Source: Patescibacteria group bacterium (lineage in GTDB: Bacteria > Patescibacteriota > UBA1384 > XYA2-FULL-43-10). Taken from it: DNA of 64,000 bases. The position numbers and the translations under genes are program-made. The stretch is from positions 103,967 through 167,966 of the forward strand of contig JBAYVT010000001.1 in NCBI GenBank assembly GCA_041674405.1, given 5' to 3'. The notes under the pieces were generated by a model that saw only the letters and a program-made list of their open reading frames with translations, ran no database searches and was not told the origin of the DNA. Shown here piece after piece: positions 43,352 to 58,882 of this stretch (position 1 is its first letter; every line of letters starts with the position of its first letter).

Positions 43352-43507
43352 TTCGACTCGTTTCACTCGCTCATGGCAAGCCAAAACGAAAAGTGAATCC
43401 ATTCGACTCTCTTTGCTCAGCCCAAATGGTCCCCTTCGGGGCTCATGGTAAACCGTCTGCCTCACCGATTATGGTGGGGCAGAATCCTAATAAGGTATAA
43501 TGAAGCC

Positions 43508-43975
43508 ATGCAACAAAAAACGAAAAAAGATACTATTGAAGAACGCAATGGCGGATTCGCCTGTGCGCATTGTAAGAAATGGGTAAATTTTTCTGACACG
43601 ATCGGAACACATCATAGAAATCATTGCCCCTATTGCCTCTGGTCCCTGCACGTTGACGACAAAGTTTCCGGCGACCGCAAGGCAGACTGCCATAGTAGCA
43701 TGGAGCCGATTGGATTGACGCTCAAAGAGGAAGGAATCGACAAATACGGGAACAAGAAACAGGGTGATGTGATGATTATTCATCAGTGTAAAAAATGTAG
43801 CAAAATTTCAATCAACCGCATCGCCGCCGATGATGGCAATGAAAAAATATTAGATCTATTGAACTATAAAATTGATTCTAAAACAAAAAAAGATCTCAGG
43901 GACTCTTCTATTGTTGTACTCAATCAATCAAATTATCCAGAAATTAAAACAGCTCTAATCGGTAAGAACATTTGA
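43508..43975 (+). CDS. RNHCP domain-containing protein
   Basis: CAHC...HHRNHCPYC...CKKC: the eponymous RNHCP motif with flanking Cys pairs. TATAAT lies 7 nt upstream of the ATG. Confidence 0.75.
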   Translation: MQQKTKKDTIEERNGGFACAHCKKWVNFSDTIGTHHRNHCPYCLWSLHVDDKVSGDRKADCHSSMEPIGLTLKEEGIDKYGNKKQGDVMIIHQCKKCSKISINRIAADDGNEKILDLLNYKIDSKTKKDLRDSSIVVLNQSNYPEIKTALIGKNI

Positions 43976-44575
43976 GGGAGTTTCTTCTAGGTGTTTGATG
44001 TCGTTAATAGTCTTTATGGAAATTTTTTTGTTTTCATCAATCAGTACGACACTAATGCTGGTATTGGCAATTTCTGTAAGCTTGCTGCCAATTTCTTGAT
44101 CAATGTAACAAAATAAATTCTTGAGCCAAATCCCGTGTGTTACAGCTAAAATTGTTTTATCCGAATAATCATTTGCGATCATCTTAATAAATTTCTTGAC
44201 ACGTATAAGCACGTCAGTGTCATTTTCGCCTCCCTCTGGGCAAAAATCTTCCTTAGACAGGCCCGAACTTAATCTCGCCTCCTCACGCAGCACCGACAAT
44301 TTACCTTCAAATATTCCGCTTCCTTTCTCTCGAAGCAAAGGCTCGTAAATAACCGGAAGGTCTGAGTGATATTTCAAAATTTCTTTAATAGTATCTTTGG
44401 TCCTTTTTAGATCGCTACAAAAAGCGATGTCAAAGTGTTGGTCTTTTAATCTCTCTCCAACTTTTCTCGCTTGTTCGGCTCCGATTTCGGAAAGTGGGTT
44501 ATGGGAATGTCCCTGAACAATTTTTTGGTCATTGTAGCCAGTATGTCCATGGCGGACAAATACGAGATTAATCAT
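43955..44575 (-). CDS. Histidine phosphatase family protein (phosphoglycerate mutase-like)
   Basis: N-terminal LVFVRHGHTGYN (RHG motif), downstream catalytic His (VTHG). Confidence 0.85.
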   Translation of the reverse strand: MINLVFVRHGHTGYNDQKIVQGHSHNPLSEIGAEQARKVGERLKDQHFDIAFCSDLKRTKDTIKEILKYHSDLPVIYEPLLREKGSGIFEGKLSVLREEARLSSGLSKEDFCPEGGENDTDVLIRVKKFIKMIANDYSDKTILAVTHGIWLKNLFCYIDQEIGSKLTEIANTSISVVLIDENKKISIKTINDIKHLEETPSNVLTD

Positions 44576-45041
44576 TGAGTTCCTTAATATATTTCACCAG
44601 CCAAAAGGTTTCGTCTGATTTGTTAGTAATTTTGCGATCGCTCAAAAATTTAAACCCGTTTTTTAGATAGAAGGCCCGTGTTCTATTATATGGTTCCCAA
44701 TCTTCTTTGTCAGATAACGTTTCCACAGTAATCTTTTTGACTTCCAGATTTCGCGCTGCCTTCTCAACCTTTTCAAGTAATTGCCCACCTACTCCCTTAC
44801 GATGAGAATTCAAGTTGACACCTAGCCAGGTAATTTTAATATCCCCCTCCTCGGATGAAAAAGTAATAAATCCAACAATTTTGCCATCATTTTCGGCAGC
44901 AAAACCATGATGCAATTTTAGATCAAGCGGAATTTCGTTCGAGATTGCATAATCATCAAACCAACCGGGATTTAGGGATTTTACAACCTTCATTACTCCG
45001 TCATGGTCGATTAGCTCAATCGGCCTAATTTTTATAGTCAT
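44568..45041 (-). CDS. GNAT family N-acetyltransferase
   Basis: ...HRKGVGGQLLEKVEKAARNLEVKKITVET... acetyl-CoA-binding core. Confidence 0.7.
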   Translation of the reverse strand: MTIKIRPIELIDHDGVMKVVKSLNPGWFDDYAISNEIPLDLKLHHGFAAENDGKIVGFITFSSEEGDIKITWLGVNLNSHRKGVGGQLLEKVEKAARNLEVKKITVETLSDKEDWEPYNRTRAFYLKNGFKFLSDRKITNKSDETFWLVKYIKELND

Positions 45042-48000
45042 TTATTTAATCCTCGAGATTCCGATCCAAATTTTCTCACCGTCGATACAGAATTCTTCTG
45101 AACCTTCCGGGTTTTCGATTTTTCCGTCAGTGCTTTCTTTCGCTAGTACTTCTTTGGCAATAATTTCCGACATTGATTTCATCACTTTTTTCAATACCTC
45201 TCCCGATGTAGCGTAATTTACAACTATCCTGTTCTCAACTTCAAACCCGGACTTTTTGCGTAGCGATTGGATGTTGCGGATGAGTTCCCTGGCAACACCT
45301 TCGGTTTTTAATTCGTCAGTTAATACCGTATCAAGCTCGACGCCTGTCTCCCCTACTCCGGAATTCTTATCTCCTTCGTCAATATGAATATCTCGTGCGT
45401 CGACATAAACTACTTTTTTCACATTTACTTCTTCAGCAATGATTGTTTCCAAATCTTCAGACAATTTTTTACCGGAATATTTTAGAAGAGCTAAAGGCTG
45501 GCGAACTTTTATTCCCGCTTCCGATCTTTTGGCTAAGCCAGCTTCAACAATCTGCCGTGTTTCTGCCATCTCATCCAGAACAGAAAGATCAAATTCTTCC
45601 GGTGCGGGGAAATCGGCCAAGTGTACCGATTCCGGATCACTTTCTTGCTTTAGGCCCTGATACACGGTTTCGGCGAACATCGGAGTAAACGGCGCCAAGA
45701 GTTTCGATAAGCCGATCAAAACTTCATACAAAGTATGATATGCCGATTCTTTATCGCTGTCAGACTCCGATTTCCAAAATCTGCGGCGTGAGCGGCGGAC
45801 ATACCAAGTAGAAAGTTCGTTTATAAAATCAAGAATCGTATTTGCCGGTCTGTAGGTATCATAGTTATCCAATGATTCGGTGATGGTTTCGGTAAGTTCG
45901 TTAAACTTCGCAAGGATCCATTTGTCTAGAATGTTTGTAGCTTCTGTTTTTCCGCTCGGCTTCCAACCGTCGATTGATGCGTACATAGAAAAGAATGAAT
46001 AAACATTCCAAAGCGTGATAAATAGGTTGCGGGAAACAGACAAAACTTCTTTTTCTGAAAAAAGCTTCGGCTCACCGGGCTGATTCACAGAATAAAGGAA
46101 GAAGCGGACGACATCGGCGCCAACTTTCTCAAATTCAGCCATCGGCTCGACAATGTTTCCCTTCGACTTCGACATTTTTTGCCCTTTTTCGTCTAGAATA
46201 TGTCCTGTCGAGATAACATTTTTAAAACAAGAATTATTTTTTACAATCGTCGAGATCGCGAGAAGCGTGTAAAACCAGCCTCGGGTTTGATCGATCGCTT
46301 CGCAAATGAAATCAGCCGGGTACTGCTCAGCAAAGAGTTCGCTGTTTTCGAATGGATAGTGATATTGGGCGTATGGCATGGAGCCGGAATCGAACCAGAC
46401 ATCCATCACTTCTGGAGTTCGTTTCATCGTTCCGCCGCATTTGCAGGTGAATTCAACCTCATCAACAAATGGTTTGTGAGGATCGAAGGCAGTACCGTCA
46501 GAATTTAGATAAAATTTATGAGATAATTCATGATCAGGGCGTTCGTGTTGGAAGTATCCAGAATAATCCAAGTTCCCTAAAATCATGTTCAATGCACCAT
46601 TAATGGCCCCGTGTGCAACAATAACGATTGTCTTACCAGGATATTCTTTTCCAATCTTGGCTAAAAATTCTTTGACCCTTTCTACAACATCAGCTCTCGT
46701 TTCCCCCGTGGTGCCAAGCTTAAAATTAAATCTTTGTTCAGGAATTTTCTCAGTCACCAAATAATCTTGAAAATCTTTCCTGTCAAGTCTTTGTTCGGGT
46801 GTAAGCTCATTCCATTCGCCGGAGTCCAGCTCAATGATTCTGTCGTCGAATATCAATTCCGCATCTACATGTTTCTTAACGATTTCTGCGGATTGCTTTG
46901 CTCTCAACACCGGAGAAGATATTATTATGTCAACTTTGTCCTTTATTTTTTTTGCGGTTGTTTCCACCTGAGTCACACCCTTCTCTGTAAGAGGCCATTT
47001 ATCAAGCGCTTTTGAATCAATATCAAGAATGTTTCTCTCCGTTTCACCGTGTCGGACAAAGATCAATTTCGTTACCTTAGTATTGCTCTCGTTGAAATCC
47101 ATAAAATTGCCAACGACTTTTTTCTCGTCACACTTGTCGCAAGTCCAGACCGGGAGCGGCGTCCCCCAATATCTGTCACGGGAAATTGCCCAGTCATTGA
47201 TATTTTCGAGCCAATTGCCAAAACGGCCGTGCTTTAAGTAGGCTGGGTTCCAGTTGATTGTCTCATTATTTTCAAGAAGCTCATCTCGAAGTTTCGACAT
47301 CGCGATATACCAAGAATCCTTGGCAAAGTAGAGAAGCGGTGAGTCACAACGCCAGCAGAACGGATAATCATGGGCGAACATCTCTTTTTTAAATAATATT
47401 CCACGTTTTTCAAGATCGAGTTTCACTTCTTTGTCGGCGTCTTTGACAAAGCTTCCTTTGCCAGCGCCGGCAAGCTCCGTCCCCTTTTCATCAACGGTCT
47501 TTAAAACCTTGATGCCGTTCTTGCGAAAACCAAATTCGTAATCATCCTCACCAAATGCCGGGGCAATGTGGACGATGCCGGTGCCGTCTGAATCGGTGAC
47601 AAAATCGGCGACAATCAGCTTGTAAACTTTCTCTCCACCTTCAGAAAATTTATCTCCGTCCGGATAAATCGCTTCGTAATCCGGTTTGTCGGTGAAAGAT
47701 GGGGCAGCAATTTCCGAACCGGTCAGCTCTTTAATGACATTTGCACCAGGCAAAACGGCATCGAGACGGCTTTGCGCAAGTATATACTTCTCTCCGTCTT
47801 TTTCTGCCAAAACGTATTTGATATTCGGGCCAAATGCTAGAGCGGCGTTGCCTGCGAGCGTCCAAGGCGTTGTCGTCCAGACAAGAAAATACGCATCTTC
47901 ATGATTTGATTTAACCTTGATATAGACTGATTCCTCTTCAACATTCTTGTATCCCTGGGCAACCTCATGAGAAGATAACGCCGTACCGCAGCGCGGGCAA

Positions 48001-48563
48001 TATGGCACGACTTTGTGGCCCCTGTAAAGCAAACCTCGTTTTTCAGCTTCGGATATCACCCACCAGATCGATTCGATATATTTGGAATCGTAGGTGACAT
48101 ATGGATCTTTCATATCGAGCCAGTAGGCCATGCGCTCGGTCATCTTTTCCCACTCGGATTTGTAAACAAAAACCGACTCTTTGCAAAGTTTATTGAATTT
48201 GGCAACCGAAGCATTTTTGTCGCCCGGAACGATATTCTCGATATCGCCCTTGCCAGAAATACCGAGCTCCTTCTCCACCTGAAGCTCTACCGGAAGCCCT
48301 TGCGTGTCCCAGCCTGCTTTGCGTCGGACATTGTAGCCTTGCATAGTTTTATATCGGTTGAAAAGATCTTTGAATGCGCGGTTTAGAACATGATGAATAC
48401 CAGGCTTGCCGTTGGCTGTCGGCGGTCCTTCATAGAATACAAAATTGCCTTTCGGGCTATCCTTCCCAAGGCTCTTCTCAAATGTTTTATCCTCTCGCCA
48501 AAATTCGAGAATTTTCTTCTCTTCTTCCGGTAAATTAAGTTTTGGATCAACCTTTTTGAACAT
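45042..48563 (-). CDS. ileS: Isoleucine--tRNA ligase, type 2 (eukaryote/archaea-like), carrying an inserted ~210-aa histidine-phosphatase-fold domain
   Basis: GPPTANGKPGIHHVL (HIGH region), CP1 editing domain, KMSKSKGN. The RHG-phosphatase insert (LIFVRHGETERN ... IVIVAHGAING) lies between the two zinc knuckles (WTCDKCDEK and FTCKCGG), at roughly nt 46476-47108. Confidence 0.9.
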   Translation of the reverse strand: MFKKVDPKLNLPEEEKKILEFWREDKTFEKSLGKDSPKGNFVFYEGPPTANGKPGIHHVLNRAFKDLFNRYKTMQGYNVRRKAGWDTQGLPVELQVEKELGISGKGDIENIVPGDKNASVAKFNKLCKESVFVYKSEWEKMTERMAYWLDMKDPYVTYDSKYIESIWWVISEAEKRGLLYRGHKVVPYCPRCGTALSSHEVAQGYKNVEEESVYIKVKSNHEDAYFLVWTTTPWTLAGNAALAFGPNIKYVLAEKDGEKYILAQSRLDAVLPGANVIKELTGSEIAAPSFTDKPDYEAIYPDGDKFSEGGEKVYKLIVADFVTDSDGTGIVHIAPAFGEDDYEFGFRKNGIKVLKTVDEKGTELAGAGKGSFVKDADKEVKLDLEKRGILFKKEMFAHDYPFCWRCDSPLLYFAKDSWYIAMSKLRDELLENNETINWNPAYLKHGRFGNWLENINDWAISRDRYWGTPLPVWTCDKCDEKKVVGNFMDFNESNTKVTKLIFVRHGETERNILDIDSKALDKWPLTEKGVTQVETTAKKIKDKVDIIISSPVLRAKQSAEIVKKHVDAELIFDDRIIELDSGEWNELTPEQRLDRKDFQDYLVTEKIPEQRFNFKLGTTGETRADVVERVKEFLAKIGKEYPGKTIVIVAHGAINGALNMILGNLDYSGYFQHERPDHELSHKFYLNSDGTAFDPHKPFVDEVEFTCKCGGTMKRTPEVMDVWFDSGSMPYAQYHYPFENSELFAEQYPADFICEAIDQTRGWFYTLLAISTIVKNNSCFKNVISTGHILDEKGQKMSKSKGNIVEPMAEFEKVGADVVRFFLYSVNQPGEPKLFSEKEVLSVSRNLFITLWNVYSFFSMYASIDGWKPSGKTEATNILDKWILAKFNELTETITESLDNYDTYRPANTILDFINELSTWYVRRSRRRFWKSESDSDKESAYHTLYEVLIGLSKLLAPFTPMFAETVYQGLKQESDPESVHLADFPAPEEFDLSVLDEMAETRQIVEAGLAKRSEAGIKVRQPLALLKYSGKKLSEDLETIIAEEVNVKKVVYVDARDIHIDEGDKNSGVGETGVELDTVLTDELKTEGVARELIRNIQSLRKKSGFEVENRIVVNYATSGEVLKKVMKSMSEIIAKEVLAKESTDGKIENPEGSEEFCIDGEKIWIGISRIK

Positions 48564-49318: not shown

Positions 49319-49804
49319 GTGGAAATGAATCAAGAAATCTATTTGAAAATCGGAGTTGTGGTTCTAAACGAAAATGACGAAATTCTTTTGATCAAGGAGA
49401 AAGTTGATGAAGAATCAGAACCGGCGCTCAACATCATAAAAGGGACTTTTGATAAACCTCACGAAAGTATTATCGATTGCGCCAAGCGAGAATGCTTGGA
49501 GGAAGCGGGGCTTGAGGTAGAGTTTCTAGGAGTCTTGAATATATTGACCATGCAGTCTCGCGGAAAACTCAAAATCCAGTTTAATTTTGTTGCCAGAGCA
49601 AACACCGACAAGGTTTCCCTGCCAAAAGAAAGAGGCCTCCACATTGAAGGAGAAAATATCATTGGAGAATCTTGGTTTACCAACGATCAGATTGCAGATC
49701 TAGAACCCAAAGATTTTGTTGCAGATTACACGCTACGCATTATCCGAGAATGGATAGAAAATGGTAAAGTATATTCCCTAAATATTTTGGAAGACCAATT
49801 TTAA
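49319..49804 (+). CDS. NUDIX hydrolase
   Basis: Nudix box GTFDKPHESIIDCAKRECLEEAGLEV. Confidence 0.8.
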   Translation: MEMNQEIYLKIGVVVLNENDEILLIKEKVDEESEPALNIIKGTFDKPHESIIDCAKRECLEEAGLEVEFLGVLNILTMQSRGKLKIQFNFVARANTDKVSLPKERGLHIEGENIIGESWFTNDQIADLEPKDFVADYTLRIIREWIENGKVYSLNILEDQF

Positions 49805-49805
49805 A

Positions 49806-50459
49806 TTATTGCAAATACTTAATTGCAATTTCCGCGACTTTGTTTGCTTTCATACCATGTTTATATTTTGACTCAAGGAATTCGATCAACTTTTTTTGCT
49901 TCTCGTAACCTTCTTCGCGATGACTTGGTAAAAATTCGCTAAATTCATAGTTCATCACAAATGTCAGCGCCTCTTTAAAATCGTTAAAACTCTCGTAAGG
50001 CAATCCGGCTTTTTTGAACTCCGGAGCAATCAGCTTATGTGTATAAAAATGTAATATTTCGTGAATAATATTCGAATTTGGATCCGGGCGGCCGAAACAT
50101 ACAAAAAAGTAACCTTGGCCGGTATTATATCCGCAACAAACATTGAATGTTAAAAAAGCGGTCAAATTGTCCTGCGTTTCATTGGTTTCGAAGAATTCAT
50201 CAGCTTTTTTAAAAAAAGGTTTTTCAATTTTTCGCCAATTATTTTCAATCGACTTAGTTTTTTCTGCAATATAGTCTCGTTGGTTCTCAGCATTTTGAGC
50301 AAAATATTTTGTCACATCTCTCTCATTATCAGGATCAAAACCAGACTCTTTAATTATGTAATAATTCTTCGGCTTTTCATTCGAGAGGTGATTTATCGAT
50401 CCAAGCGTAGAAAAATAATTTCCGATTTCTCTCTTTGTTGAATATTTGAAAATTATCAT
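49806..50459 (-). CDS. Hypothetical protein with HExxH motif (possible metallopeptidase-like fold)
   Basis: HEILHFYTH. Start set at MIIFKYST, 1 nt after the upstream stop; the track's longer ORF would overlap the CYTH gene by 65 nt. Confidence 0.4.
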   Translation of the reverse strand: MIIFKYSTKREIGNYFSTLGSINHLSNEKPKNYYIIKESGFDPDNERDVTKYFAQNAENQRDYIAEKTKSIENNWRKIEKPFFKKADEFFETNETQDNLTAFLTFNVCCGYNTGQGYFFVCFGRPDPNSNIIHEILHFYTHKLIAPEFKKAGLPYESFNDFKEALTFVMNYEFSEFLPSHREEGYEKQKKLIEFLESKYKHGMKANKVAEIAIKYLQ

Positions 50460-50460
50460 T

Positions 50461-51105
50461 CTATACCTCGATGTACTCTTTAAATTTTTCGAGGATGTCT
50501 GACAATTTATCTTTTTCAAGATCAATTCGATAACCAGGGCGACTGTTTAATTCATCCAGAAGGTCATAGAACTCTTCCTCACCCAAAACTTTCAGCCCCA
50601 AGGCATCAATTTCTTTGTCTAGTATTTTATTAGCGTCAGCAACATTCTCTTCATCAGTCAAGATTTCGGCCTCAAAATAATGTCCCCAATCAGGGACTTC
50701 AACAACTGCAAATTCGACTCCACGATACTCGTAGTCATATTTTGTGTTCGCCATAAGGACATATTTTGTAAATCCGAGGATTTTTAGAAATTCGATAAAA
50801 TCAGTGAATTTTTTGGTCTCAAATTCAAAATTATATTCTTTTCTGGCATCTTTGCCACTCCATTTGCCATATTTGCATGCTAACTCTGCTTGGCCATTTG
50901 TGATACGGATTTTAAGATCGACCGGATCATCTTTCACTTCGCGAATACTTTTTATGCTTGCGCTTTTTATCATCGAAAAGCGTTTTTTCTTGCCTAAAAA
51001 AGTGCCTTCCTTGGAGAGAAAAGAATTTAAATGCTCAAACTTTTCCGCGGTCAGTAGCCCGCGATGCTCGACTTCCATCTGCGACATATTATTCCTTATG
51101 GCCAA
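50461..51105 (-). CDS. CYTH-domain protein (triphosphate tunnel metalloenzyme / class IV adenylyl cyclase-like)
   Basis: N-terminal EVEHRGLL (ExExK-type) and alternating charged beta-strand pattern. Confidence 0.65.
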   Translation of the reverse strand: MAIRNNMSQMEVEHRGLLTAEKFEHLNSFLSKEGTFLGKKKRFSMIKSASIKSIREVKDDPVDLKIRITNGQAELACKYGKWSGKDARKEYNFEFETKKFTDFIEFLKILGFTKYVLMANTKYDYEYRGVEFAVVEVPDWGHYFEAEILTDEENVADANKILDKEIDALGLKVLGEEEFYDLLDELNSRPGYRIDLEKDKLSDILEKFKEYIEV

Positions 51106-51133
51106 ATTTAAAAAGTAGTATTATTATTTTACT

Positions 51134-52135
51134 ATGGAAAACAAACTAATTACCAGTCTAAATAAATTTTACAGTTTAGATATTACTCGGATTGTTGCCA
51201 AAGCTAAGGGCGGATTTTTGAGTGATAATATGATTGTGGCAAACAAAGACCAAAAATTCTTTCTACGCAAATACCGTGACAAATATTCCAGTGATGATAT
51301 TGCAAGTATACACAAAAGTAAGCAATTTTTCTTCGAACATGGCATTCCCATAATCATGCCGATTAAAACCGTAAATGGAGACACATTCGTTGAAATTACT
51401 GGTAAATTTTATGGATTATTTCCATTTATCGAAGAAAAAGATATTAACCGAAACAAGCTAAACGACGACGTTTTAATATCAATCGCTCAGATGCAAGCGA
51501 AAATGCATCTTTTGAGTAAAGATGGAACGCCAAAAGTTACTGTAGAATCGAAAAATGTTTGGGATAAAAAAAAATCTTTACAAATGGCAAAGGAATTTGG
51601 AAAAATCATTTCACAGAAAAAATTATTAAATGGATTTGATCGCTTAGCAAGGAAATTTATTAGGCTAAAGAAGAAAATAATTGAAGAAAATAAATTAAAG
51701 TTTGAAGATTTGAACATCAGGTCAGATCACCTGGTTCATGGTGATTTCCATGCCGGTAATCTGTTTTATGACGATAACGATACGGTAAAATATGTATTCG
51801 ATCTCGAAAAAACGATTTTCGCGCCACGGGCATTTGAGCTTGTTAGGTCAATCATATTTATATGTTTCAGTAAGGGCTTTGAAAAGGGCATGGAAAAAGC
51901 CGGTTTGTATTTGAAAGCTTATCACAAAATATATCCGATCTCGGATTCAGAATTTCGGGCAGGATTTCTCATGAGATATCTTGATATGGCTCATTCTTTC
52001 TGGATCGAAGAGCATCATTATCTAAAGAAGTACTACAAAACAGATGTTTTATACCGAGACGATTTTATAAAACTAGAATATTTTTCCCGTGATATCAAGG
52101 GCGTGATTCGGAGAATATTAAAAAACGCGAAATAG
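51134..52135 (+). CDS. APH-family phosphotransferase (aminoglycoside/homoserine-kinase-II-like)
   Basis: HLVHGDFHAGNLFYDDNDTVKYVFDLE matches HGD..N...D[FL]E. Confidence 0.75.
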   Translation: MENKLITSLNKFYSLDITRIVAKAKGGFLSDNMIVANKDQKFFLRKYRDKYSSDDIASIHKSKQFFFEHGIPIIMPIKTVNGDTFVEITGKFYGLFPFIEEKDINRNKLNDDVLISIAQMQAKMHLLSKDGTPKVTVESKNVWDKKKSLQMAKEFGKIISQKKLLNGFDRLARKFIRLKKKIIEENKLKFEDLNIRSDHLVHGDFHAGNLFYDDNDTVKYVFDLEKTIFAPRAFELVRSIIFICFSKGFEKGMEKAGLYLKAYHKIYPISDSEFRAGFLMRYLDMAHSFWIEEHHYLKKYYKTDVLYRDDFIKLEYFSRDIKGVIRRILKNAK

Positions 52136-52143
52136 CGAAATAG

Positions 52144-55100
52144 CTAAATCACGATATTTACAATTTTTCCAGGTACGACGATTACTTTTTTAATCTCTTT
52201 GCCAGTAATAAATGCGCTGACTTTTTCACTATTTTTAGCAGCTTCCTCGAGGGCAGTTTTTTCAATATCTTTATCTACTTCGATGACATCGCGAAGTTTG
52301 CCATTGACCTGAATGGCAATTTTGATCTTATCGTCGCCTTTCAAGCTTTCATCAAATTTCGGCCAAGCTGAATTTGAAACCAAACCCTCGTTGCCGAGCT
52401 TTTCCCATAATTCTTCGGCCAAATGAGGAGCAGCCGGTGCTAGAAGCTGGCAGAATACACCAAATGATTTTTTACTAATTTCTTTCTCGGCCGACATAAG
52501 ATTGTTGAAAGTCATAAGTTTGGCAACATAAGTATTCAAGTTGAATCGCTCAAGATCGTTCTCAACAGCAAAGACTAATTTATTTACAGCAACTGCAAGA
52601 TTATCACTATCAACTTTACCAGAGACTTTGTCCGAGTTTTCCCAAACTTTATTAAGAAATCTTGAAACGCCAGATAAGCCGTCCATGTTCCAGGCGGATT
52701 CTTTATCATACGGCCCGATGAACATAATGTAGGTGCGAAGCGCATCGGCACCATAGCGCTTCACAACATCATCCGGATTGACCACATTCCCCCGCGATTT
52801 GCTCATTTTTTGGTTGTCCGCGCCAAGTATGATCCCGTGAGCGATTCGTTTGTTATATGGCTCAAGCGTTGGCACTTTGCCAAGATCATATAGAAATTTG
52901 TGCCAAAAACGCGAATACAAAAGGTGCAAAGTTGTATGTTCGTTGCCGCCATTGTAAAGATCAACCGGCATCCAATATTTCAATTCTTTGACTGATGCTG
53001 AGAAAATGTCTTCGCTTGATTCATAATTCTTGATTCTTGATTCTTGATTCATTGCGTAAGCGATGAAGTACCACGATGATCCCGCCCAGTTTGGCATCGT
53101 ATCGGTCTCGCGCTTGGCGGGGCCGCCGCACTTCGGGCAGGTTGTATTTACCCAGTCGGTAATTGCGGCAAGCGGGGACTCACCGGTATCGGTCGGCTCA
53201 TACTTTTCAACCTCCGGTAAAGTAAGTGGTAAATCTTTCTCATCCATCGGCACAGTCCCGCACTTCTCGCAGTGGATGATAGGGATCGGCTCGCCCCAGT
53301 AGTGCTGGCGGGAAAATATCCAGTCACGAAGCTTGAAATTGACTGCGAAATCCCCGGCACCCATTTCCTTGAGCTTCTCGGTTATTTTCTTTTTACCTTC
53401 TTCTGATGTTAACCCATCAAACTCTTTGGAATTGGCAAGAACGCCATATTCCTCAAATGAATGTGCTGGATTATGAAAGCGGTCACGGACAATTTCATGC
53501 TCTATCGGCAGGACATATCCTTTGATATTCTCAATTTCATCCCAATCCGCCCAGAACGGTTCGCTTTCCTCTGCCTCTTCTTTGGATAACGGCTCCTGCT
53601 CCTCATCAAGCAACTCGAAAGCCAAAGGATAATATGTAGCTTTTCTATTCACATTTTTGTGAGTTGCATGGAAATGGACTTCCATCGGGCCGCCTAAGTT
53701 TCGAACGAATTTGACGTTCTTGTAACCGGTTTCTTCTAAAATCTCGCGCTTGGCGGTATCAACGATTGATTCACCTGGCTCAATGCCGCCGATAACCAAC
53801 CCGATCCAAGGAAACTTCTTCCACTTAAGGGCTAGAACTTTGTTATTTTTGGGATTTATTACCACGGCATAAACCTGCTTTCGCTCGACTGTCTCTACGC
53901 CATCGATTGGCGGATCATTTTTATCAATTAGTTTAGGAATGATAACTTCCTTGATTGGAATATTGTATTTTTCGGCAAATTCAAAATCCCTCTGGTCGTG
54001 CGCAGGCACCGCCATCACGGCACCGGTTCCATAGGTTGCGAGAACATAATCAGCAATCCACACAGAAACTTCCTCGCCGTTTATCGGATTTATAGCTTTA
54101 ATTCCTTTTAATTCCACTCCAGTCTTGTCTTTGGCAAGCTCAGTCCTGTCCATATCTGACTTTTTCTTCGCATTTTCAATATAGTTTTCCACATCTTTGA
54201 CATTTGATATTTGATCTTTGATTTTGTCAACGAGTTCGTGTTCCGGCGCTAATACTATATATGTCACGCCGAAAAGCGTATCCGCGCGAGTAGTGTAGAC
54301 CTTGATAATATTATCATTTAAGGATTCCAGAAACTTGGCTCTTTCAAGATCATTTTTTCCGGCTCTGCGTTCTTTTTGGGCGGTAATCTTATAACAATTT
54401 GCCAGCCATTTTGCATCGGGAACTAAAAATTCATGCCCGTCCAGTTCTTTTATAGTATCTCCCAGATCATGATCAAGTGTCCCAATCTCAATGTTGAAAT
54501 CATCAGTACGAAAGACGCAAACCTGAAATTTTCCGTTGTCCTTATCTTCAATTTTACTGTAACCAAGTTCAGAAAAGATTTTTTTGCTTTCATCAAAATC
54601 TTTGGCCAAAACTCCCAAATCAACATCTGCAGGATTTTCAAAAATATTTCCGCAATATCCAGCAACTGCAAAAGTACCATTAACCCAGAGTTTGATATTG
54701 CGCTTTTTAAATTCTGAATTGATCCTATCAATCGCTTCAAGCATTTTATTTGTTTTGTCAGAAATATTGGCATTCCCAAGATCAACTTTTTCTGAAGTTT
54801 GCTCCGCTTCGGTTGAAATGACAATTTTAAAATCAATTTCCGTTCCCTCGGATCGGCCAATCCAGTTTATCTGCTGGGTTTTGATATTCTCAAGATAATC
54901 AACGGTATCGAGATCCTTGATCAATCTATCTGCATAGGCTGTGATACGGAGCATCCATTGCTTCTGTTTGCGTTTTTCTGTCTGCGCGCCGCAGCGTTCA
55001 CAATTTCCGCCGATCACCTCTTCGTTGGCGAGGATGATTTTGCATGATGGGCACCAGTTAACTGGCATCTCGGCCTGAAATGCCAAGCGTGGAGTTTCTT

Positions 55101-55587
55101 TGTCGTCATCGGCAACTTCGACAAGCTTGCCGTTGACAATCGCGTGCTTATAGAACTGCATGAATATCCACTGCGTCCATTTATAATAATTGGGATCAGT
55201 AGTATTGACCTCGCGACCCCAATCGAAGGAATAGCCAAGCGATTTCATCTGCTTTTTGAAGGTCGCAATACTTAGTGTGGTAACGTCTCTTGGTTTTGTC
55301 TTGGTTTTAATTGCGTAATTCTCTGTCGGCAGACCAAATGCGTCCCAACCCATTGGAAAAAGAACATTGTAGCCTTGCATCCTTTTCATACGCGTAAACG
55401 CATCCGAGGCGGTGTAACCCATGCAGTGTCCAACGTGCAATCCTGATCCGGAAGGATAAGGGAACTCCATGAGGGAGTAGAACTTCGGCTTATCGGAAAA
55501 ATCAATGGACTGGCCGTATTTCGCCTCTTCCCAGGCCTTCTGCCATTTAGATTCAATTTTTTCAAAATCGTATTTTGCCATAATCAA
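52144..55587 (-). CDS. leuS: Leucine--tRNA ligase carrying two inserted enzyme-fold domains (nucleotidyltransferase-like and NUDIX)
   Basis: HVGHCMGY (HIGH), CPSC...CERCG zinc domain, NWIGRSEG, CP1 editing, KMSKSRGN, 1147 aa. Insert 1 sits between EIDFKI and VYTTRADT (E. coli has 7 aa there) and contains GTFAVAGYCGNIFENPADVDLGVL, a GS...DhDh nucleotidyltransferase motif. Insert 2 after YNIPIKEVI contains the Nudix box GGIEPGESIVDTAKREILEETGY. Confidence 0.9.
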   Translation of the reverse strand: MIMAKYDFEKIESKWQKAWEEAKYGQSIDFSDKPKFYSLMEFPYPSGSGLHVGHCMGYTASDAFTRMKRMQGYNVLFPMGWDAFGLPTENYAIKTKTKPRDVTTLSIATFKKQMKSLGYSFDWGREVNTTDPNYYKWTQWIFMQFYKHAIVNGKLVEVADDDKETPRLAFQAEMPVNWCPSCKIILANEEVIGGNCERCGAQTEKRKQKQWMLRITAYADRLIKDLDTVDYLENIKTQQINWIGRSEGTEIDFKIVISTEAEQTSEKVDLGNANISDKTNKMLEAIDRINSEFKKRNIKLWVNGTFAVAGYCGNIFENPADVDLGVLAKDFDESKKIFSELGYSKIEDKDNGKFQVCVFRTDDFNIEIGTLDHDLGDTIKELDGHEFLVPDAKWLANCYKITAQKERRAGKNDLERAKFLESLNDNIIKVYTTRADTLFGVTYIVLAPEHELVDKIKDQISNVKDVENYIENAKKKSDMDRTELAKDKTGVELKGIKAINPINGEEVSVWIADYVLATYGTGAVMAVPAHDQRDFEFAEKYNIPIKEVIIPKLIDKNDPPIDGVETVERKQVYAVVINPKNNKVLALKWKKFPWIGLVIGGIEPGESIVDTAKREILEETGYKNVKFVRNLGGPMEVHFHATHKNVNRKATYYPLAFELLDEEQEPLSKEEAEESEPFWADWDEIENIKGYVLPIEHEIVRDRFHNPAHSFEEYGVLANSKEFDGLTSEEGKKKITEKLKEMGAGDFAVNFKLRDWIFSRQHYWGEPIPIIHCEKCGTVPMDEKDLPLTLPEVEKYEPTDTGESPLAAITDWVNTTCPKCGGPAKRETDTMPNWAGSSWYFIAYAMNQESRIKNYESSEDIFSASVKELKYWMPVDLYNGGNEHTTLHLLYSRFWHKFLYDLGKVPTLEPYNKRIAHGIILGADNQKMSKSRGNVVNPDDVVKRYGADALRTYIMFIGPYDKESAWNMDGLSGVSRFLNKVWENSDKVSGKVDSDNLAVAVNKLVFAVENDLERFNLNTYVAKLMTFNNLMSAEKEISKKSFGVFCQLLAPAAPHLAEELWEKLGNEGLVSNSAWPKFDESLKGDDKIKIAIQVNGKLRDVIEVDKDIEKTALEEAAKNSEKVSAFITGKEIKKVIVVPGKIVNIVI

Positions 55588-56867: not shown

Positions 56868-56956
56868 AATTTTCTAGTTAATTCTTGATATTAGAAATCT
56901 TATCGAAATCCATCCAATGGATATAGTGCTAGTTGTTAGAATCACTCAGCATTTTC
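56868..56956 (-). pseudogene. Decayed C-terminal fragment of a NUDIX paralog (KMLSDSNN*HYIHWMDFDKISNIKN*)
   Basis: ~80% nt identity over 53 nt to 56447-56499 of the intact NUDIX gene, with protein-level similarity (KMLTDSNNQYYIHWMDFDDISKTPN) interrupted by stops. It overlaps the last codons of the methyltransferase gene. Confidence 0.5.
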
Positions 56957-57716
56957 CCAGAATTACAAAATATTGAGGAGAATTATTTTCGAAAATTTTA
57001 AGTATTTTCCAACCCGTCGGGCGAATTAGTTGCTCTAATTCACTCGGTGACAGATAGAGATATTCAAACCAGGGACCCGTGATGTCATCATATCGTACTC
57101 TCAATTTTACCTCTCCGGAAAGTTTGCCCTTTTTTAGGTTACAATTAAAATATGATCGATAGGCTGGATCATAAATCTTGTCCGGATTTGAACTCTCGGC
57201 AATAATAATAGCATTGTCACTTCCAGCACCATGGAGTCGTCTAAGAATTTCAGGGGCTTTTATTTGATTTTGCAATAGGCCCAAGTTATTACCCATTAAC
57301 AAAAAGGTGTCATACTTCAAATCTAACGAATCATTTATGTTCTCAATTTGACCGATTAATGATTTCTTTATACCTTGCATCTTGCACACCCTGATAGCGA
57401 GCGGAGAAGGGTCCATAGCTGTGACGTCTAATCCTTTTTCTTGTAAGTACAGGGCGTGTCTACCTGGTCCACACCCAATATCTAAAATCTTACCTTTGGC
57501 AAAGCCAACTGCAATAATCTCATTTTTGCTCCATTGTTCTGATTTTATAAAATAAAAATTTCCCGCAGATACTTCCGTTAAGCCATCATCTCTTTCGATT
57601 AGGAGAACATTGTCTTTGCCATTAAAACAATCCCAAATCTGTCTCCCAAAGGCATCATTATTTCTTTTTGCCTTCATGTTTAAAAACCAGTAATATATTT
57701 GTAGCATACACTTCAA
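56946..57716 (-). CDS. Class I SAM-dependent methyltransferase
   Basis: Motif I ILDIGCGPGRHALYL. Confidence 0.8.
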   Translation of the reverse strand: MKCMLQIYYWFLNMKAKRNNDAFGRQIWDCFNGKDNVLLIERDDGLTEVSAGNFYFIKSEQWSKNEIIAVGFAKGKILDIGCGPGRHALYLQEKGLDVTAMDPSPLAIRVCKMQGIKKSLIGQIENINDSLDLKYDTFLLMGNNLGLLQNQIKAPEILRRLHGAGSDNAIIIAESSNPDKIYDPAYRSYFNCNLKKGKLSGEVKLRVRYDDITGPWFEYLYLSPSELEQLIRPTGWKILKIFENNSPQYFVILGKC

Positions 57717-57823: not shown

Positions 57824-58882
57824 TTGCAAGAGTATCAACTCATCAAATTGTGGAAGGAAATAATGGTAGAAGGAAAATTTTATTTTTCACATGAACATGA
57901 GCAGCATACAGGCTTTACAGACAGTGAAGGAAATGATTGGGATGTACCTGGGCGGCTGGAGAAAATTGTCTCATGGATTGCCAGAAGGTATGGAGAAAAT
58001 TATTTAAATGTTCTGCAAGAAATAAACGAGTCTGATTTTATTGATATAATTCGGCGGGTTCACGAAGCCGAAATGATAGAGGAACTGAAACAAACTAGCC
58101 TAAGAGCAAAGGATGGCGAAGCCCTAATTACGTCATTTGACTCAGATAAGGAAACGAGCGTTACTCCTGTTTCGAGACATACATATAAAAGCGCACTTGC
58201 TGCGGTAAAATGCTCTCTTTCAGCAGCCGAAATGTTGAAAAGCTCTCGGTCAAACCTTGCTGTCGCCTTATCACGCCCTCCAGGACATCACGCTGGGAAA
58301 AATTATTATCATGGTTTTTGTTACATGAACAATATTGCTGTCGCAGCCGAATCTTTAAAAGAGGATGGAGAAAGAGTAGCAATTCTGGATATTGACGCTC
58401 ATCATGGCGACGGAACTCAACAAATCTTCCAAGATGACTCAAGCGTATTTTACTCTTCGCTTCACGCTGATCCAAATCTGGTGCTTCCGCATACCGGAAA
58501 GTCTGACGAGATCGGTAATGACGGAAGTATTTTGAATCTCCCTTATTCAATTGGTATCTCGACAGAAGAATATTTGACCTTGCTGAATTTTTCGCTTAAA
58601 CATATCCAAATGTTTGACCCGCAATATCTGTTAATATCGGCTGGATTTGATACCCACAAACGCGAATTTGAATCGATGGGCTTGCCACCAGTTACGCAGC
58701 TTGATTCACCCGACTACGAGGAGATAGGGCGGATGATTGGATCATTGTCTTTGCCAACTGGGGTGGTTCTTGAAGGGGGTTACAACCAAACTGCGTTGAG
58801 CGAAGCTTTGATGAATTTTACTATTGGCCTGGAGAACAGCTTAAAAACCAAGCCATGCTTTGACTTTTTTGCTCTAAAGTGA
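57824..58882 (+). CDS. Histone deacetylase/acetoin-utilisation (HDAC, arginase-deacetylase fold) family hydrolase
   Basis: ILDIDAHHGDGTQ, PPGHHAG and GFCYMNN motifs. Confidence 0.85.
   Translation: MQEYQLIKLWKEIMVEGKFYFSHEHEQHTGFTDSEGNDWDVPGRLEKIVSWIARRYGENYLNVLQEINESDFIDIIRRVHEAEMIEELKQTSLRAKDGEALITSFDSDKETSVTPVSRHTYKSALAAVKCSLSAAEMLKSSRSNLAVALSRPPGHHAGKNYYHGFCYMNNIAVAAESLKEDGERVAILDIDAHHGDGTQQIFQDDSSVFYSSLHADPNLVLPHTGKSDEIGNDGSILNLPYSIGISTEEYLTLLNFSLKHIQMFDPQYLLISAGFDTHKREFESMGLPPVTQLDSPDYEEIGRMIGSLSLPTGVVLEGGYNQTALSEALMNFTIGLENSLKTKPCFDFFALK

What the first reader, a model, noticed from the sequence alone, without database searches (positions are those of the whole stretch)
45042..48563. 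Type-2 IleS with an embedded histidine-phosphatase (RHG, PGM-like) domain between its zinc knuckles
The IleS is eukaryote/archaea-like (PTANGKPGIHHVL rather than bacterial P..NG.IHIGH). Between WTCDKCDEK and FTCKCGG it carries ~210 aa (aa ~486-696, nt ~46476-47108) with the histidine-phosphatase signature LIFVRHGETERN near the start and a second catalytic His (IVIVAHGAING) near the end. A free-standing histidine phosphatase lies two genes downstream at 43955-44575. A second aaRS in the same window with an enzymatic insert (see LeuS) points to a lineage-specific pattern rather than a single accident.
Basis: partly seen in the sequence, partly recalled or inferred. Interest (0 to 1): 0.75.

Follow-up and report, generated by a model that had tools for sequence, protein, structure and literature searches.

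The report
Active phosphatase nested inside IleRS
The isoleucyl-tRNA synthetase of this uncultured Patescibacteria (CPR) bacterium has a complete, apparently active histidine-phosphatase enzyme spliced into a zinc-knuckle surface loop; many related genomes share this arrangement (at least 80 species), the searched literature does not describe it, and its purpose is unknown.

Summary
Confirmed. ORF 45042-48563(-) is a 1173-aa type-2 IleRS (TIGR00392, 904 bits). A 189-aa His_Phos_1 domain (aa 498-686, E=4.9e-31) replaces the tip of the zinc-knuckle CP3 subdomain. Insert-less sister proteins have a 31-aa hairpin there.

It is neither an accident nor a chimera. The identical gene occurs in two independent assemblies. 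The best 80 GTDB species-representative loci and 60 of the 120 best homologs, nearly all labelled Patescibacteria, carry the insert at the same site. The catalytic set R504/H505/R554/E578/H651 is invariant in 60/60.

Related IleRS carry His_Phos at two further loops flanking KMSKS, in tandem arrays, or together with GNAT, NUDIX or a P-loop domain. Two ValRS fragments carry it too, one with at least four copies. The window's LeuRS carries a NUDIX domain, as do about 75 of its 120 best homologs.

Free-standing ~197-aa orthologs nest inside the insert clade. The insert is often lost and evolves like an ordinary accessory enzyme. Its closest folds are short small-molecule phosphatases (PspA, PhoE, CobC).

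Best reading: an autonomous phosphomonoesterase riding on a permissive aaRS loop, substrate unknown. A tRNA 3'-end or adenylate "guard" role is not excluded. No paper describing it was found.

The parts
45042..48563 (-). ileS: type-2 isoleucyl-tRNA synthetase, 1173 aa, with a nested phosphatase domain
   Evidence: ORF. TIGR00392 scores 904 bits against a cutoff of 621. PDB 8c8w IleRS2, E=1.3e-263. AF2 model pLDDT 92.2, pTM 0.85. Foldseek TM 0.80-0.89 to IleRS2 structures.
48390..48401 (-). GIHH (aa 55-58), the GXHH variant of the class I HIGH motif
   Evidence: Sequence. GXHH is the mupirocin hyper-resistance form of IleRS2 (PMC10485003).
47148..48563 (-). First half of the Rossmann fold, CP core, CP1 editing domain (WTTTPWT 229-235, GTGIVH 327-332), CP2 and the CP2-CP3 linker DWAISRDRYWG
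   Evidence: PF00133. Invariant columns in the 80-sequence alignment. The CP2-3 linker lines the tRNA A76/reveromycin pocket in yeast IleRS (PMC7955072).
47121..47147 (-). CP3 zinc knuckle, first half: WTCDKCDEK (C475, C478)
   Evidence: C475 is invariant and C478 is at least 90% conserved in 80 sequences. The CP3 of T. thermophilus IleRS holds the zinc motif (PMC7191050).
47073..47120 (-). N-terminal linker (aa 482-497): short strand plus helix, ordered in the model
   Evidence: DSSP E481-483 and H487-492, with pLDDT blocks of 94-96. 80-95% identical between Q and P0001 although the domain itself is about 46% identical.
46506..47072 (-). Histidine-phosphatase (His_Phos_1, branch 1) domain, aa 498-686; catalytic R504, H505, R554, E578, H651
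   Evidence: PF00300 E=4.9e-31. The catalytic set is invariant in 60/60 insert-bearing homologs and in the copies at other sites. Domain model pLDDT 94. Foldseek TMt 0.71-0.80 to PspA, Entamoeba PSP, CobC and PhoE.
46452..46505 (-). C-terminal linker (aa 687-704) with the conserved DPHKPxxD
   Evidence: H696 and D701 are invariant in both insert-bearing and insert-less IleRS.
46431..46451 (-). CP3 zinc knuckle, second half: FTCKCGG (C707, C709)
   Evidence: C707 and C709 are invariant.
45927..46430 (-). Second half of the Rossmann fold: DVWFDSG (721-727) and KMSKS (796-800)
   Evidence: Invariant K796, M797, S798, K799. PF00133/PF09334.
45045..45926 (-). Anticodon-binding domain and type-2 C-terminal domains (DUF5915)
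   Evidence: PF08264 E=6.8e-33 and PF19302 E=1.2e-23.
44568..45041 (-). GNAT acetyltransferase gene that abuts the ileS stop codon (same operon; link to the finding uncertain)
   Evidence: PF13508/PF00583. Gene order ileS-GNAT-His_Phos. Other CPR IleRS carry an internal GNAT, but no sequence similarity to this one was detected.
43955..44575 (-). Free-standing His_Phos_1 paralog, overlapping the GNAT gene by 8 nt
   Evidence: PF00300 E=4e-40. 33% id to the insert. Falls outside the insert clade. Syntenic copy directly after ileS in L001.

Best explanation
The gene encodes a working type-2 IleRS whose CP3 zinc-knuckle hairpin has been opened at its tip to accommodate a complete, catalytically competent histidine phosphatase. 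The phosphatase is of the short PhoE/PspA/CobC type.

Shown:
- The synthetase keeps every signature: GXHH, KMSKS, the editing motifs and both zinc sites.
- The phosphatase keeps the full phospho-histidine catalytic set.
- The architecture is old and widespread in Patescibacteria, and is repeatedly lost.
- The domain also exists as a free-standing gene.
- The same enzyme family has been inserted at two or more other loops of IleRS, in tandem arrays, and in ValRS.

Inferred: the domain works as an autonomous phosphomonoesterase on a soluble phosphoester, most plausibly a nucleotide-like or small acidic metabolite. It uses H505 as nucleophile and E578 as proton donor, and IleRS serves as an expression and stability scaffold on a permissive surface loop rather than as a catalytic partner. 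Aminoacylation itself does not need the domain. The insert is one instance of a Patescibacteria habit of decorating class Ia aaRS with small hydrolase or transferase domains: His_Phos in IleRS and ValRS, NUDIX and alpha/beta-hydrolase domains in LeuRS, and GNAT or a P-loop domain in some IleRS.
For: Identity and integrity of both enzymes.

Same site in many genomes:
- 60 of the 120 best homologs carry it.
- The best 80 of 491 relatives found among GTDB species representatives all cover the insert.

Co-inheritance with the core: Mantel r=0.67, 0 of 2000 permutations as high.

Dispensable for IleRS function:
- Insert-less proteins with a 31-aa hairpin are interleaved with insert-bearing ones in the core tree.
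- The nearest insert-less relatives (P0007-14) are sister to the window's own clade.

Autonomy of the domain:
- Free-standing 196-206-aa proteins nest inside the insert clade at 42-49% id.
- They sit in unrelated gene contexts.

Passenger-like evolution:
- Between the window and L001 genomes the insert is 46% identical, the core is 83%, and ordinary enzymes of the same pair are 52-55%.
- The drop in identity coincides exactly with the domain borders.
- The embedded domains are not basic (median pI 6.3; the window's insert 5.6).

Closest sequence and fold relatives are small-molecule phosphatases.

General scaffold habit.

IleRS+/-His_Phos and LeuRS+/-NUDIX appear in all four combinations. This is inferred from equal contig lengths (187,319: +/-; 165,009 and 694,453: -/+; 867,751: -/-; window: +/+). 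If correct, the two inserts are not steps of one obligatory pathway.
Against: If IleRS were only a permissive scaffold, a random assortment of passenger families would be expected. That is not what is seen.
- His_Phos dominates. It was inserted at three different loops that all flank the KMSKS active-site half and is duplicated up to four times.
- It also appears in the paralog ValRS but in none of the 120 best LeuRS homologs. That preference hints at functional coupling.
- The linkers are short, ordered and conserved, and the whole-protein pTM is 0.85. This suggests a fixed orientation rather than a loosely tethered passenger.
- CP3 starts right after the CP2-3 linker that lines the tRNA A76 pocket.

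No substrate is identified, and all subfamily models score far below their cutoffs.
Confidence: 0.5

Rival explanations
1. In-cis tRNA end-healing or guard module. The phosphatase removes a blocking 3'- or 2'-phosphate from the A76 end of tRNA(Ile), for example after nuclease damage or toxSAS-type pyrophosphorylation. Alternatively it removes a phosphorylated nucleotide that occupies the synthetic site, so that IleRS can charge the tRNA. NUDIX, nucleotidyltransferase-like, P-loop and GNAT inserts in sister aaRS would then be other tools of the same kit.
For: - His_Phos is recurrently inserted at three loops around the KMSKS half of the active site and in ValRS.
- Tandem amplification occurs.
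- Linkers are ordered and conserved, and pTM is 0.85.
- CP3 follows the linker that lines the A76 pocket (PMC7955072).
- tRNA 3'-CCA pyrophosphorylation and 3'-nucleotide addition are established ways of blocking aminoacylation (PMC11559606; 10.1101/2021.04.30.441581; PMC10435456).
- The co-inserted families (NUDIX; a weak nucleotidyltransferase hit; AAA_18, not shown to be a kinase) resemble the activities used in RNA end repair.
- From my own knowledge, unverified here: the HD domain of the E. coli CCA-adding enzyme has phosphatase and 2',3'-cyclic phosphodiesterase activity proposed for tRNA end repair.
Against: - No histidine-phosphatase superfamily member is known to me to act on RNA 3' ends.
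- The embedded domains are not basic.
- Free-standing orthologs exist in unrelated contexts.
- Loss is frequent.
- The insert and the LeuRS NUDIX appear to assort independently.
- The nearest folds are small-metabolite phosphatases.
- There are no PADLOC defence-system hits.
Confidence: 0.22
2. Metabolite sensor or regulator. The domain binds, and slowly turns over, a phospho-metabolite such as 3-PGA, phosphoserine or a nucleotide. Through the rigid CP3 connection it tunes IleRS activity, coupling translation to the energy or carbon state of a metabolically minimal cell.
For: The connection to CP3 is rigid and conserved. CP3 serves as a regulatory protein-docking surface in human IARS1 (PMC13439101). 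CP3 adjoins the active-site CP2-3 linker.
Against: Strict conservation of the proton donor E578 and both histidines argues for turnover, not mere binding. Free-standing orthologs and tandem arrays are hard to fit to an allosteric switch. Insert-less sisters manage without it.
Confidence: 0.1
3. Resistance or detoxification module. The phosphatase inactivates a phosphorylated aaRS-directed antibiotic or toxin product, by analogy with GNAT (MccE/RimL-type) and HIT enzymes that detoxify aminoacyl-adenylate mimics. The enzyme is placed on the drug's target.
For: The host IleRS already has the GXHH hyper-resistance motif. Typical drug-modifying families lie next to or inside these aaRS: GNAT, APH, NUDIX and an ANT(2'')-like hit. 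HIT genes lie near ileS in L001 and L002. An NRPS cluster is adjacent in this genome.
Against: No phosphorylated IleRS inhibitor is known to me. The architecture is conserved across very different habitats and lineages without a conserved resistance context: 82 loci have no associated GNAT or His_Phos neighbours. The window's GNAT is unrelated in sequence to the fused GNATs.
Confidence: 0.08
4. Inert spacer, pseudoenzyme, or artefact such as a mis-assembly, a fused gene call or a mobile element.
For: None beyond the unusual length of the protein.
Against: The gene is identical in two independent assemblies. The same in-frame architecture occurs in more than 100 independent contigs. The catalytic residues are invariant. 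The fold is confidently predicted. Only aaRS and His_Phos families hit the protein, so nothing suggests an intein or a transposase. The insert has genome-average GC (0.39).
Confidence: 0.02

Closest known systems
Bacterial type-2 IleRS (IleRS2), e.g. Priestia megaterium 8C8U/8C8W and Thermus thermophilus 1ILE
   Same: Whole-body architecture (Rossmann fold, CP core, CP1 editing, CP2, zinc-knuckle CP3, ABD, type-2 C-terminal domains). phmmer E=1e-263 and Foldseek TMt 0.80-0.89. The GXHH motif is as in hyper-resistant IleRS2.
   Different: CP3 here holds a 189-aa enzyme domain where 8c8w has about 20 residues. No solved IleRS has it. This protein also lacks about 87 residues of 8c8w (846-933), which may be the ARD2 INS subdomain.
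Short histidine phosphatases of branch 1: PspA phosphoserine phosphatase (4IJ5), Entamoeba PSP (6M1X), PhoE/YhfR (1H2E, 1EBB), CobC alpha-ribazole phosphatase (6E4B), GpgP (4PZA), riboflavin HFP (9MMH)
   Same: Fold (TMt 0.70-0.80), a size of about 190 aa, the RHG...R...E...H catalytic set, and no long dPGM-type C-terminal tail.
   Different: 19-31% identity only. All subfamily equivalog models are far below cutoff: dPGM_arch 86/225, PspA 77/350, CobC 76/163. It is nested inside another enzyme, and its substrate is unknown.
NCBIfam NF040702, 'isoleucine--tRNA ligase, N-acetyltransferase domain-containing'
   Same: A curated precedent that bacterial IleRS can carry an embedded small-molecule-modifying enzyme. 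Some CPR IleRS combine GNAT and His_Phos in the same region (P0180, P0221, P0189).
   Different: The window's protein has no internal GNAT and scores 309 against a cutoff of 1999. Its GNAT is a separate downstream gene with no detectable similarity to the fused GNATs.
NF005567 bifunctional RNase H/acid phosphatase (Rv2228c type)
   Same: A His_Phos (CobC-like) domain fused to a nucleic-acid enzyme. The insert matches its phosphatase half (74 bits).
   Different: That is an end-to-end fusion, not a nested insertion. The partner is different, and the score is below the cutoff of 326.
Idiosyncratic insertion modules of class Ia aaRS: variable CP3, the LeuRS leucine-specific domain, and eukaryotic appended domains such as LARS1 UNE-L docking on IARS1 CP3
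   Same: The same structural hot-spots are used (CP3, and the loop before KMSKS). CP3 is known to vary in topology and to serve as an interaction surface (PMC7191050, PMC13439101).
   Different: Known modules are small structural, tRNA-binding or protein-binding elements. Here the module is a full enzyme with an intact active site of its own.

Membership tests
Isoleucyl-tRNA synthetase (TIGR00392 equivalog) | Whole-protein HMM score at or above the curated cutoff | tested here: met
   904.3 bits against a cutoff of 621.4, in two stretches split by the insert.
Isoleucyl-tRNA synthetase (TIGR00392 equivalog) | Class I signature motifs (HIGH-type and KMSKS) and the CP1 editing motifs | tested here: met
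   GIHH 55-58 (GXHH variant), KMSKS 796-800, WTTTPWT 229-235, GTGIVH 327-332.
Type-2 IleRS (IleRS2) | Type-2 C-terminal organisation without a C-terminal zinc-binding domain; closest to IleRS2 rather than IleRS1 | tested here: met
   PF19302 DUF5915. 8c8w IleRS2 E=1e-263 against IleRS1 1ffy at 2e-104. Foldseek gives the same ranking.
MupA/MupB acquired mupirocin-resistance IleRS (NF000257/NF000258) | Score at or above the curated cutoff (1900) | tested here: not met
   800 and 835 bits. It is an IleRS2 relative, not a member.
Histidine phosphatase superfamily, branch 1 (PF00300) | Pfam score at or above the gathering threshold | tested here: met
   108.4 bits against 21.7, E=4.9e-31, aa 500-679, profile positions 1-175 of 194.
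Histidine phosphatase superfamily, branch 1 (PF00300) | Catalytic core: RHG nucleophile His, two Arg, an acidic proton donor and a second His | tested here: met
   R504, H505, G506, R554, E578 and H651 are present. R504/H505/R554/E578/H651 are invariant in 60/60 homologs and G506 in 58/60. Nearly all copies at other sites keep the set.
Histidine phosphatase superfamily, branch 1 (PF00300) | Alpha/beta fold of the superfamily | tested here: met
   AF2 pLDDT 94.1, pTM 0.91. Foldseek probability 1.00 and TMt 0.71-0.80 to PspA, PhoE and CobC.
Histidine phosphatase superfamily, branch 1 (PF00300) | Phosphatase or mutase activity through a phospho-histidine intermediate | not testable with these tools
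   Needs an enzyme assay with an H505A control.
Specific subfamilies: dPGM (NF038349), PspA (NF045917), CobC (TIGR03162), SixA (TIGR00249) | Score at or above the curated equivalog cutoff | tested here: not met
   86.5/225, 77/350, 75.9/162.9 and 28.4/74.5. The substrate class is therefore unassigned.
IleRS with embedded GNAT (NF040702) | Score at or above 1999 and an internal GNAT domain | tested here: not met
   308.7 bits, and no GNAT hit inside the protein.
Known anti-phage defence systems (PADLOC) | HMM match of the insert or of neighbouring genes | tested here: not met
   No hits for the insert, the free phosphatase, GNAT, CYTH, APH or RNHCP.

The most novel reading that the evidence does not exclude
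Class Ia aminoacyl-tRNA synthetases of Patescibacteria carry built-in substrate-repair or guard enzymes. These would be a histidine phosphatase in IleRS and ValRS, and NUDIX, a possible nucleotidyltransferase and alpha/beta-hydrolase domains in LeuRS. They would act in cis on the tRNA 3' end or on adenylate-site ligands, removing blocking phosphates or other adducts (such as toxin-installed 3'-pyrophosphate) before charging. That would be a previously unknown layer of translational quality control or counter-defence, physically integrated into the synthetase.
Probability: 0.2. Interest if true: 0.85.

Novelty: new variant of a known kind. Interest (0 to 1): 0.68.

Why it matters
1. An essential, highly conserved translation enzyme tolerates, and across a major bacterial radiation retains, a second complete active site nested in its catalytic domain. 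This identifies CP3 and the two loops flanking KMSKS as natural domain-insertion-permissive sites, which is useful for aaRS engineering.

2. The same hydrolase family was recruited to IleRS and ValRS several times: at three sites, in tandem arrays, and with module swaps between lineages. This recurrence is either a striking case of fusion for economy in minimal genomes or evidence of an unknown functional link between phosphoester hydrolysis and tRNA charging. Either answer is directly testable with recombinant protein.

3. Annotation. NCBI names several of these proteins only 'class I tRNA ligase family protein'. Automated reconstructions could therefore under-call ileS or leuS in CPR genomes, and could overlook a phosphatase that may fill a metabolic gap.

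Tried and rejected
- Recent duplication of the neighbouring phosphatase into ileS: rejected. It is 33% identical and falls outside the insert clade. It does not match the 'second-copy' type of tandem arrays better than other types.
- Rosetta-stone reading of the operon ileS-GNAT-His_Phos as the unfused form of GNAT+His_Phos IleRS: not supported at sequence level. The window's GNAT has no detectable similarity to the fused GNATs. In 82 other loci no free His_Phos or GNAT lies near ileS.
- Recent foreign origin of the insert: no support. Its GC and GC3 equal the genome average.
- Rapid or diversifying evolution of the insert in the window's clade (core 88% against insert 45% for Q and P0001): better explained by ordinary divergence of an accessory protein. 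Free His_Phos and APH orthologs of the same genome pair are 52-55% identical. True module replacement is nevertheless seen elsewhere: P0049 against P0062 has core 80% and insert 28%.
- Core positions co-varying with insert presence (an interface signal): confounded by phylogeny and uninformative.
It was replaced by a single-sequence scan.
- The afdb50 fold library was unavailable.
- PADLOC gave no hits.
- Literature: five searches combining IleRS, aaRS, CPR, Patescibacteria, histidine phosphatase, phosphoglycerate mutase and NUDIX found no description. Two recent IleRS evolution and structure papers do not mention it.
- My first read-out of catalytic columns was shifted by one residue. It was corrected.

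Full report
**1. The observation**

ORF 45042..48563 on the minus strand encodes 1173 aa. Pfam finds tRNA-synt_1 on both sides of a His_Phos_1 domain (PF00300, aa 500-679, E=4.9e-31, 108 bits against a gathering score of 21.7), followed by Anticodon_1 and DUF5915. NCBIfam's ileS equivalog scores 904 bits (cutoff 621), in two stretches. The best solved relatives are type-2 IleRS: P. megaterium IleRS2 8c8w (E=1e-263) and T. thermophilus 1ile. IleRS1 is far behind.

In the 8c8w alignment, query 3-481 matches 2-465 and query 692-1050 matches 485-846. About 210 residues therefore stand where the reference has about 20. The exact protein is encoded in two independent assemblies, so it is not a chimera.

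**2. Where the insert sits**

The insert lies between WTCDKCDEK (C475, C478) and FTCKCGG (C707, C709). These four cysteines are invariant or nearly so in an 80-sequence alignment, as are H696 and D701 of the DPHKPxxD linker. In the IleRS domain nomenclature this is the CP3 subdomain. CP3 contains the zinc motif in T. thermophilus IleRS and differs in topology among IleRSs (PMC7191050). In human IARS1 it is the docking surface for LARS1 (PMC13439101). It follows the CP2-3 linker (DWxxSRxRYWG) that lines the tRNA A76/reveromycin pocket (PMC7955072).

Insert-less close relatives have exactly 31 residues between the corresponding points (for example EKCDKYKVVSKLADIGDIDPHKPFIDEVELV). The phosphatase is therefore inserted at the tip of a short zinc-knuckle hairpin.

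**3. Both enzymes look intact**

- IleRS keeps GIHH (the GXHH form of HIGH), KMSKS, the editing motifs WTTTPWT and GTGIVH, and both zinc sites.
- The phosphatase keeps R504, H505, G506, R554, E578 and H651, plus the LTxxG, SxxxR and GE(S/T)...R motifs. In 60 insert-bearing homologs with mean insert identity of only 35%, R504, H505, T526, G529, S550, R554, E578, E621, R629 and H651 are invariant.
- AlphaFold2 predicts the whole protein with mean pLDDT 92.2 and pTM 0.85. The insert blocks score 89-97 and the linkers are ordered.
- The isolated region gives pLDDT 94.1. Its nearest solved folds are short small-molecule phosphatases: PspA 4ij5/4ij6, Entamoeba PSP 6m1x, HFP 9mmh, CobC 6e4b, PhoE 1h2e/1ebb and GpgP 4pza (TMt 0.70-0.80). 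Sequence search gives the same list.
- No subfamily equivalog cutoff is reached, so the substrate is unassigned.
- No PDB IleRS has the insert.

**4. Distribution**

Of the 120 best homologs, 60 carry the insert at the same site and 61 do not. Source names include Berkelbacteria, Komeilibacteria, Pacebacteria and 'Patescibacteria group'.

A scan of GTDB species representatives found 491 relatives. The best 80 all cover the whole query including the insert (38-45% id). They come from Paceibacterota, Nomura-, Taylor-, Campbell- and Zambryskii-bacteria, Minisyncoccia and MAGs labelled Saccharibacteria. A few have odd labels that are probably mis-binned.

In a neighbour-joining tree of 861 core columns, insert-bearing and insert-less proteins are interleaved. 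The window's clade (Q, P0001, P0002) is sister to insert-less P0007-14. Core and insert distances correlate (Mantel r=0.67, 0 of 2000 permutations as high), so the insert is largely co-inherited and repeatedly lost.

There are also clear module replacements. P0049 is 80% identical to P0062 in the core but 28% in the insert. It is 55% and 55% identical to P0003.

**5. The domain can live alone**

A search with the insert alone found free-standing 196-198-aa proteins (P0121-3) at 47-49% identity. The exhaustive representative search added P0128 and P0132. In a joint tree these nest inside the window's insert subgroup. The window's neighbouring phosphatase (43955-44575) and its L001 ortholog fall outside the insert clade at 29-34% identity. 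The free orthologs lie in unrelated contexts.

**6. More elaborate relatives**

Almost all hits of 600 aa or longer in the representative search are IleRS. The variants are:
- Two His_Phos copies in tandem in CP3 (P0153, P0140, P0178).
- Copies between DVWFDS and KMSKS (P0146, P0141, P0180, P0221).
- Copies after KMSKS (P0146, P0143, P0135).
- GNAT plus His_Phos (P0180, P0221, P0189).
- His_Phos plus an AAA_18 P-loop domain (P0225).
- NUDIX at the N-edge of the editing domain plus His_Phos in CP3 (P0082).

Two hits are ValRS fragments. P0190 carries a copy at the CP3-equivalent site, and P0137 carries at least four copies. Every full-length copy keeps R-H-R-E-H, apart from E→N in P0180 and E→D in P0252.

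The window's LeuRS (52144-55587) carries NUDIX at aa 570-687. About 75 of its 120 best homologs do too. A few add alpha/beta-hydrolase domains, and none has His_Phos.

This is an inference.

**7. How it most likely works**

Shown:
- Two intact active sites in one chain.
- The phosphatase is dispensable for IleRS, because sister proteins lack it.
- It is able to exist alone.
- It evolves at the pace of ordinary accessory enzymes. Between the window and L001 genomes the figures are insert 46%, free His_Phos 52%, APH 55%, RNHCP 70%, GrpE 74% and IleRS core 83%.
- The drop in identity coincides with the domain borders.
- The domain is not basic (median pI 6.3).
- It is structurally closest to small-metabolite phosphatases.

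Inferred: an autonomous phosphomonoesterase (H505 nucleophile, E578 proton donor) acts on a soluble phosphoester, with IleRS as scaffold. I give this about 0.5.

The main rival (about 0.2) is a cis-acting guard or repair function at the tRNA 3' end or the adenylate site. Four things motivate it: the repeated choice of the same family at three loops around the KMSKS half; its presence in ValRS but not in LeuRS; the rigid, conserved linkers; and the known existence of toxins that block A76 by pyrophosphorylation or nucleotide addition. A sensor or regulator role (about 0.1) and a drug-detoxification role (about 0.08) are weaker. An artefact or pseudoenzyme is excluded.

The decisive geometric test, the position of the H505 pocket relative to the CCA path, therefore remains to be done.

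**8. Comparison with what is known, and novelty**

The host is a member of IleRS2 and the insert is a member of His_Phos_1; both membership tests are met. It is not a member of MupA/B, of any named phosphatase subfamily, or of NCBI's 'ileS_w_GNAT' family.

Precedents for the idea exist: NF040702 (GNAT in IleRS), the RNase H/acid phosphatase fusion, variable CP3 modules, and eukaryotic appended domains. However, five literature searches and two recent IleRS evolution and structure papers contain no description of a histidine phosphatase nested in an aaRS.

I rate it a new variant of a known kind: a real, conserved and apparently undescribed architecture whose function is open and easily testable.

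Noticed in passing
window 52144-55587 (-): The LeuRS (1147 aa) carries a NUDIX domain (aa 570-687, E=3.6e-14) right after the editing domain. About 75 of its 120 best homologs (Patescibacteria) share it, insert-less forms are about 820-880 aa, and a few relatives add alpha/beta-hydrolase domains (PF12697, PF00561, PF06821). A 100% identical entry, P0276, is named only 'class I tRNA ligase family protein'.
   Followed up: partly
window 54319-54816 (-), LeuRS aa 258-423: There is a second insert of about 165 aa in the same LeuRS, absent from most NUDIX-bearing relatives. It weakly matches the nucleotidyltransferase family PF10706 (aminoglycoside-2''-adenylyltransferase; 23.3 bits against a cutoff of 21, E=7.6e-5). 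LeuRS may therefore hold two embedded enzymes.
   Followed up: partly
window 48390-48401 (-), IleRS aa 55-58: The HIGH motif is GIHH, the GXHH variant that gives IleRS2 hyper-resistance to mupirocin (PMC10485003). Alignment A1 indicates the motif is general among these Patescibacteria IleRS: G55 and both histidines are at least 90% conserved and the consensus reads GIHH.
   Followed up: partly
window 45045-45500 approx. (-), IleRS aa ~1050-1071: Relative to P. megaterium IleRS2, about 87 residues (8c8w 846-933) are missing. This may correspond to the optional INS subdomain of ARD2 described in 10.64898/2026.02.03.703510.
   Followed up: no
window 58902-64000 (+), running off the window end: This is part of a large NRPS gene (two AMP-binding, one Condensation and two PP-binding domains within the window; 2077 aa in L090, followed by another Condensation/PP-binding gene). 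As far as I know, NRPS genes are unusual in a Patescibacteria genome. It is preceded by an HDAC-like deacetylase (57824-58882) and a methyltransferase (56946-57716).
   Followed up: partly
window 49319-52135: Between the two decorated aaRS genes lies a run of small nucleotide- or phosphate-handling genes: NUDIX (49319-49804), an unassigned ORF (49806-50525), CYTH (50461-51105) and an APH-family kinase (51134-52135). An APH gene also lies upstream of ileS in the relative L001, and HIT genes lie near ileS in L001 and L002.
   Followed up: partly
window 43955-45041 (-): The GNAT gene (44568-45041) starts immediately after the ileS stop codon and overlaps the free His_Phos gene (43955-44575) by 8 nt, forming a tight ileS-GNAT-His_Phos operon. 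In L001 the free His_Phos follows ileS directly, without a GNAT.
   Followed up: yes
P0189 (no locus fetched): One CPR IleRS representative (1066 aa) shows an IS200-like Y1 transposase domain (PF01797, aa 340-461) inside the protein, besides His_Phos and a C-terminal GNAT. This may be a mobile-element insertion or a mis-called gene.
   Followed up: no
L004 667-4659 (P0082): This IleRS has two embedded enzymes: a 145-aa NUDIX inserted just before the WTTTPWT editing motif (after window-protein position 222) and His_Phos in CP3.
   Followed up: partly
window 13301-16210 (+): A 969-aa hybrid sensor kinase with MEDS, several PAS domains, HisKA, HATPase_c and a receiver domain. As far as I know, that is elaborate signalling for a small-genome CPR bacterium.
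   Followed up: no
window 43445-43975 (+): An RNHCP-domain zinc-ribbon protein converges on the free His_Phos gene, and their 3' ends overlap by about 21 nt. The His_Phos/RNHCP/GrpE arrangement is syntenic in L001.
   Followed up: no
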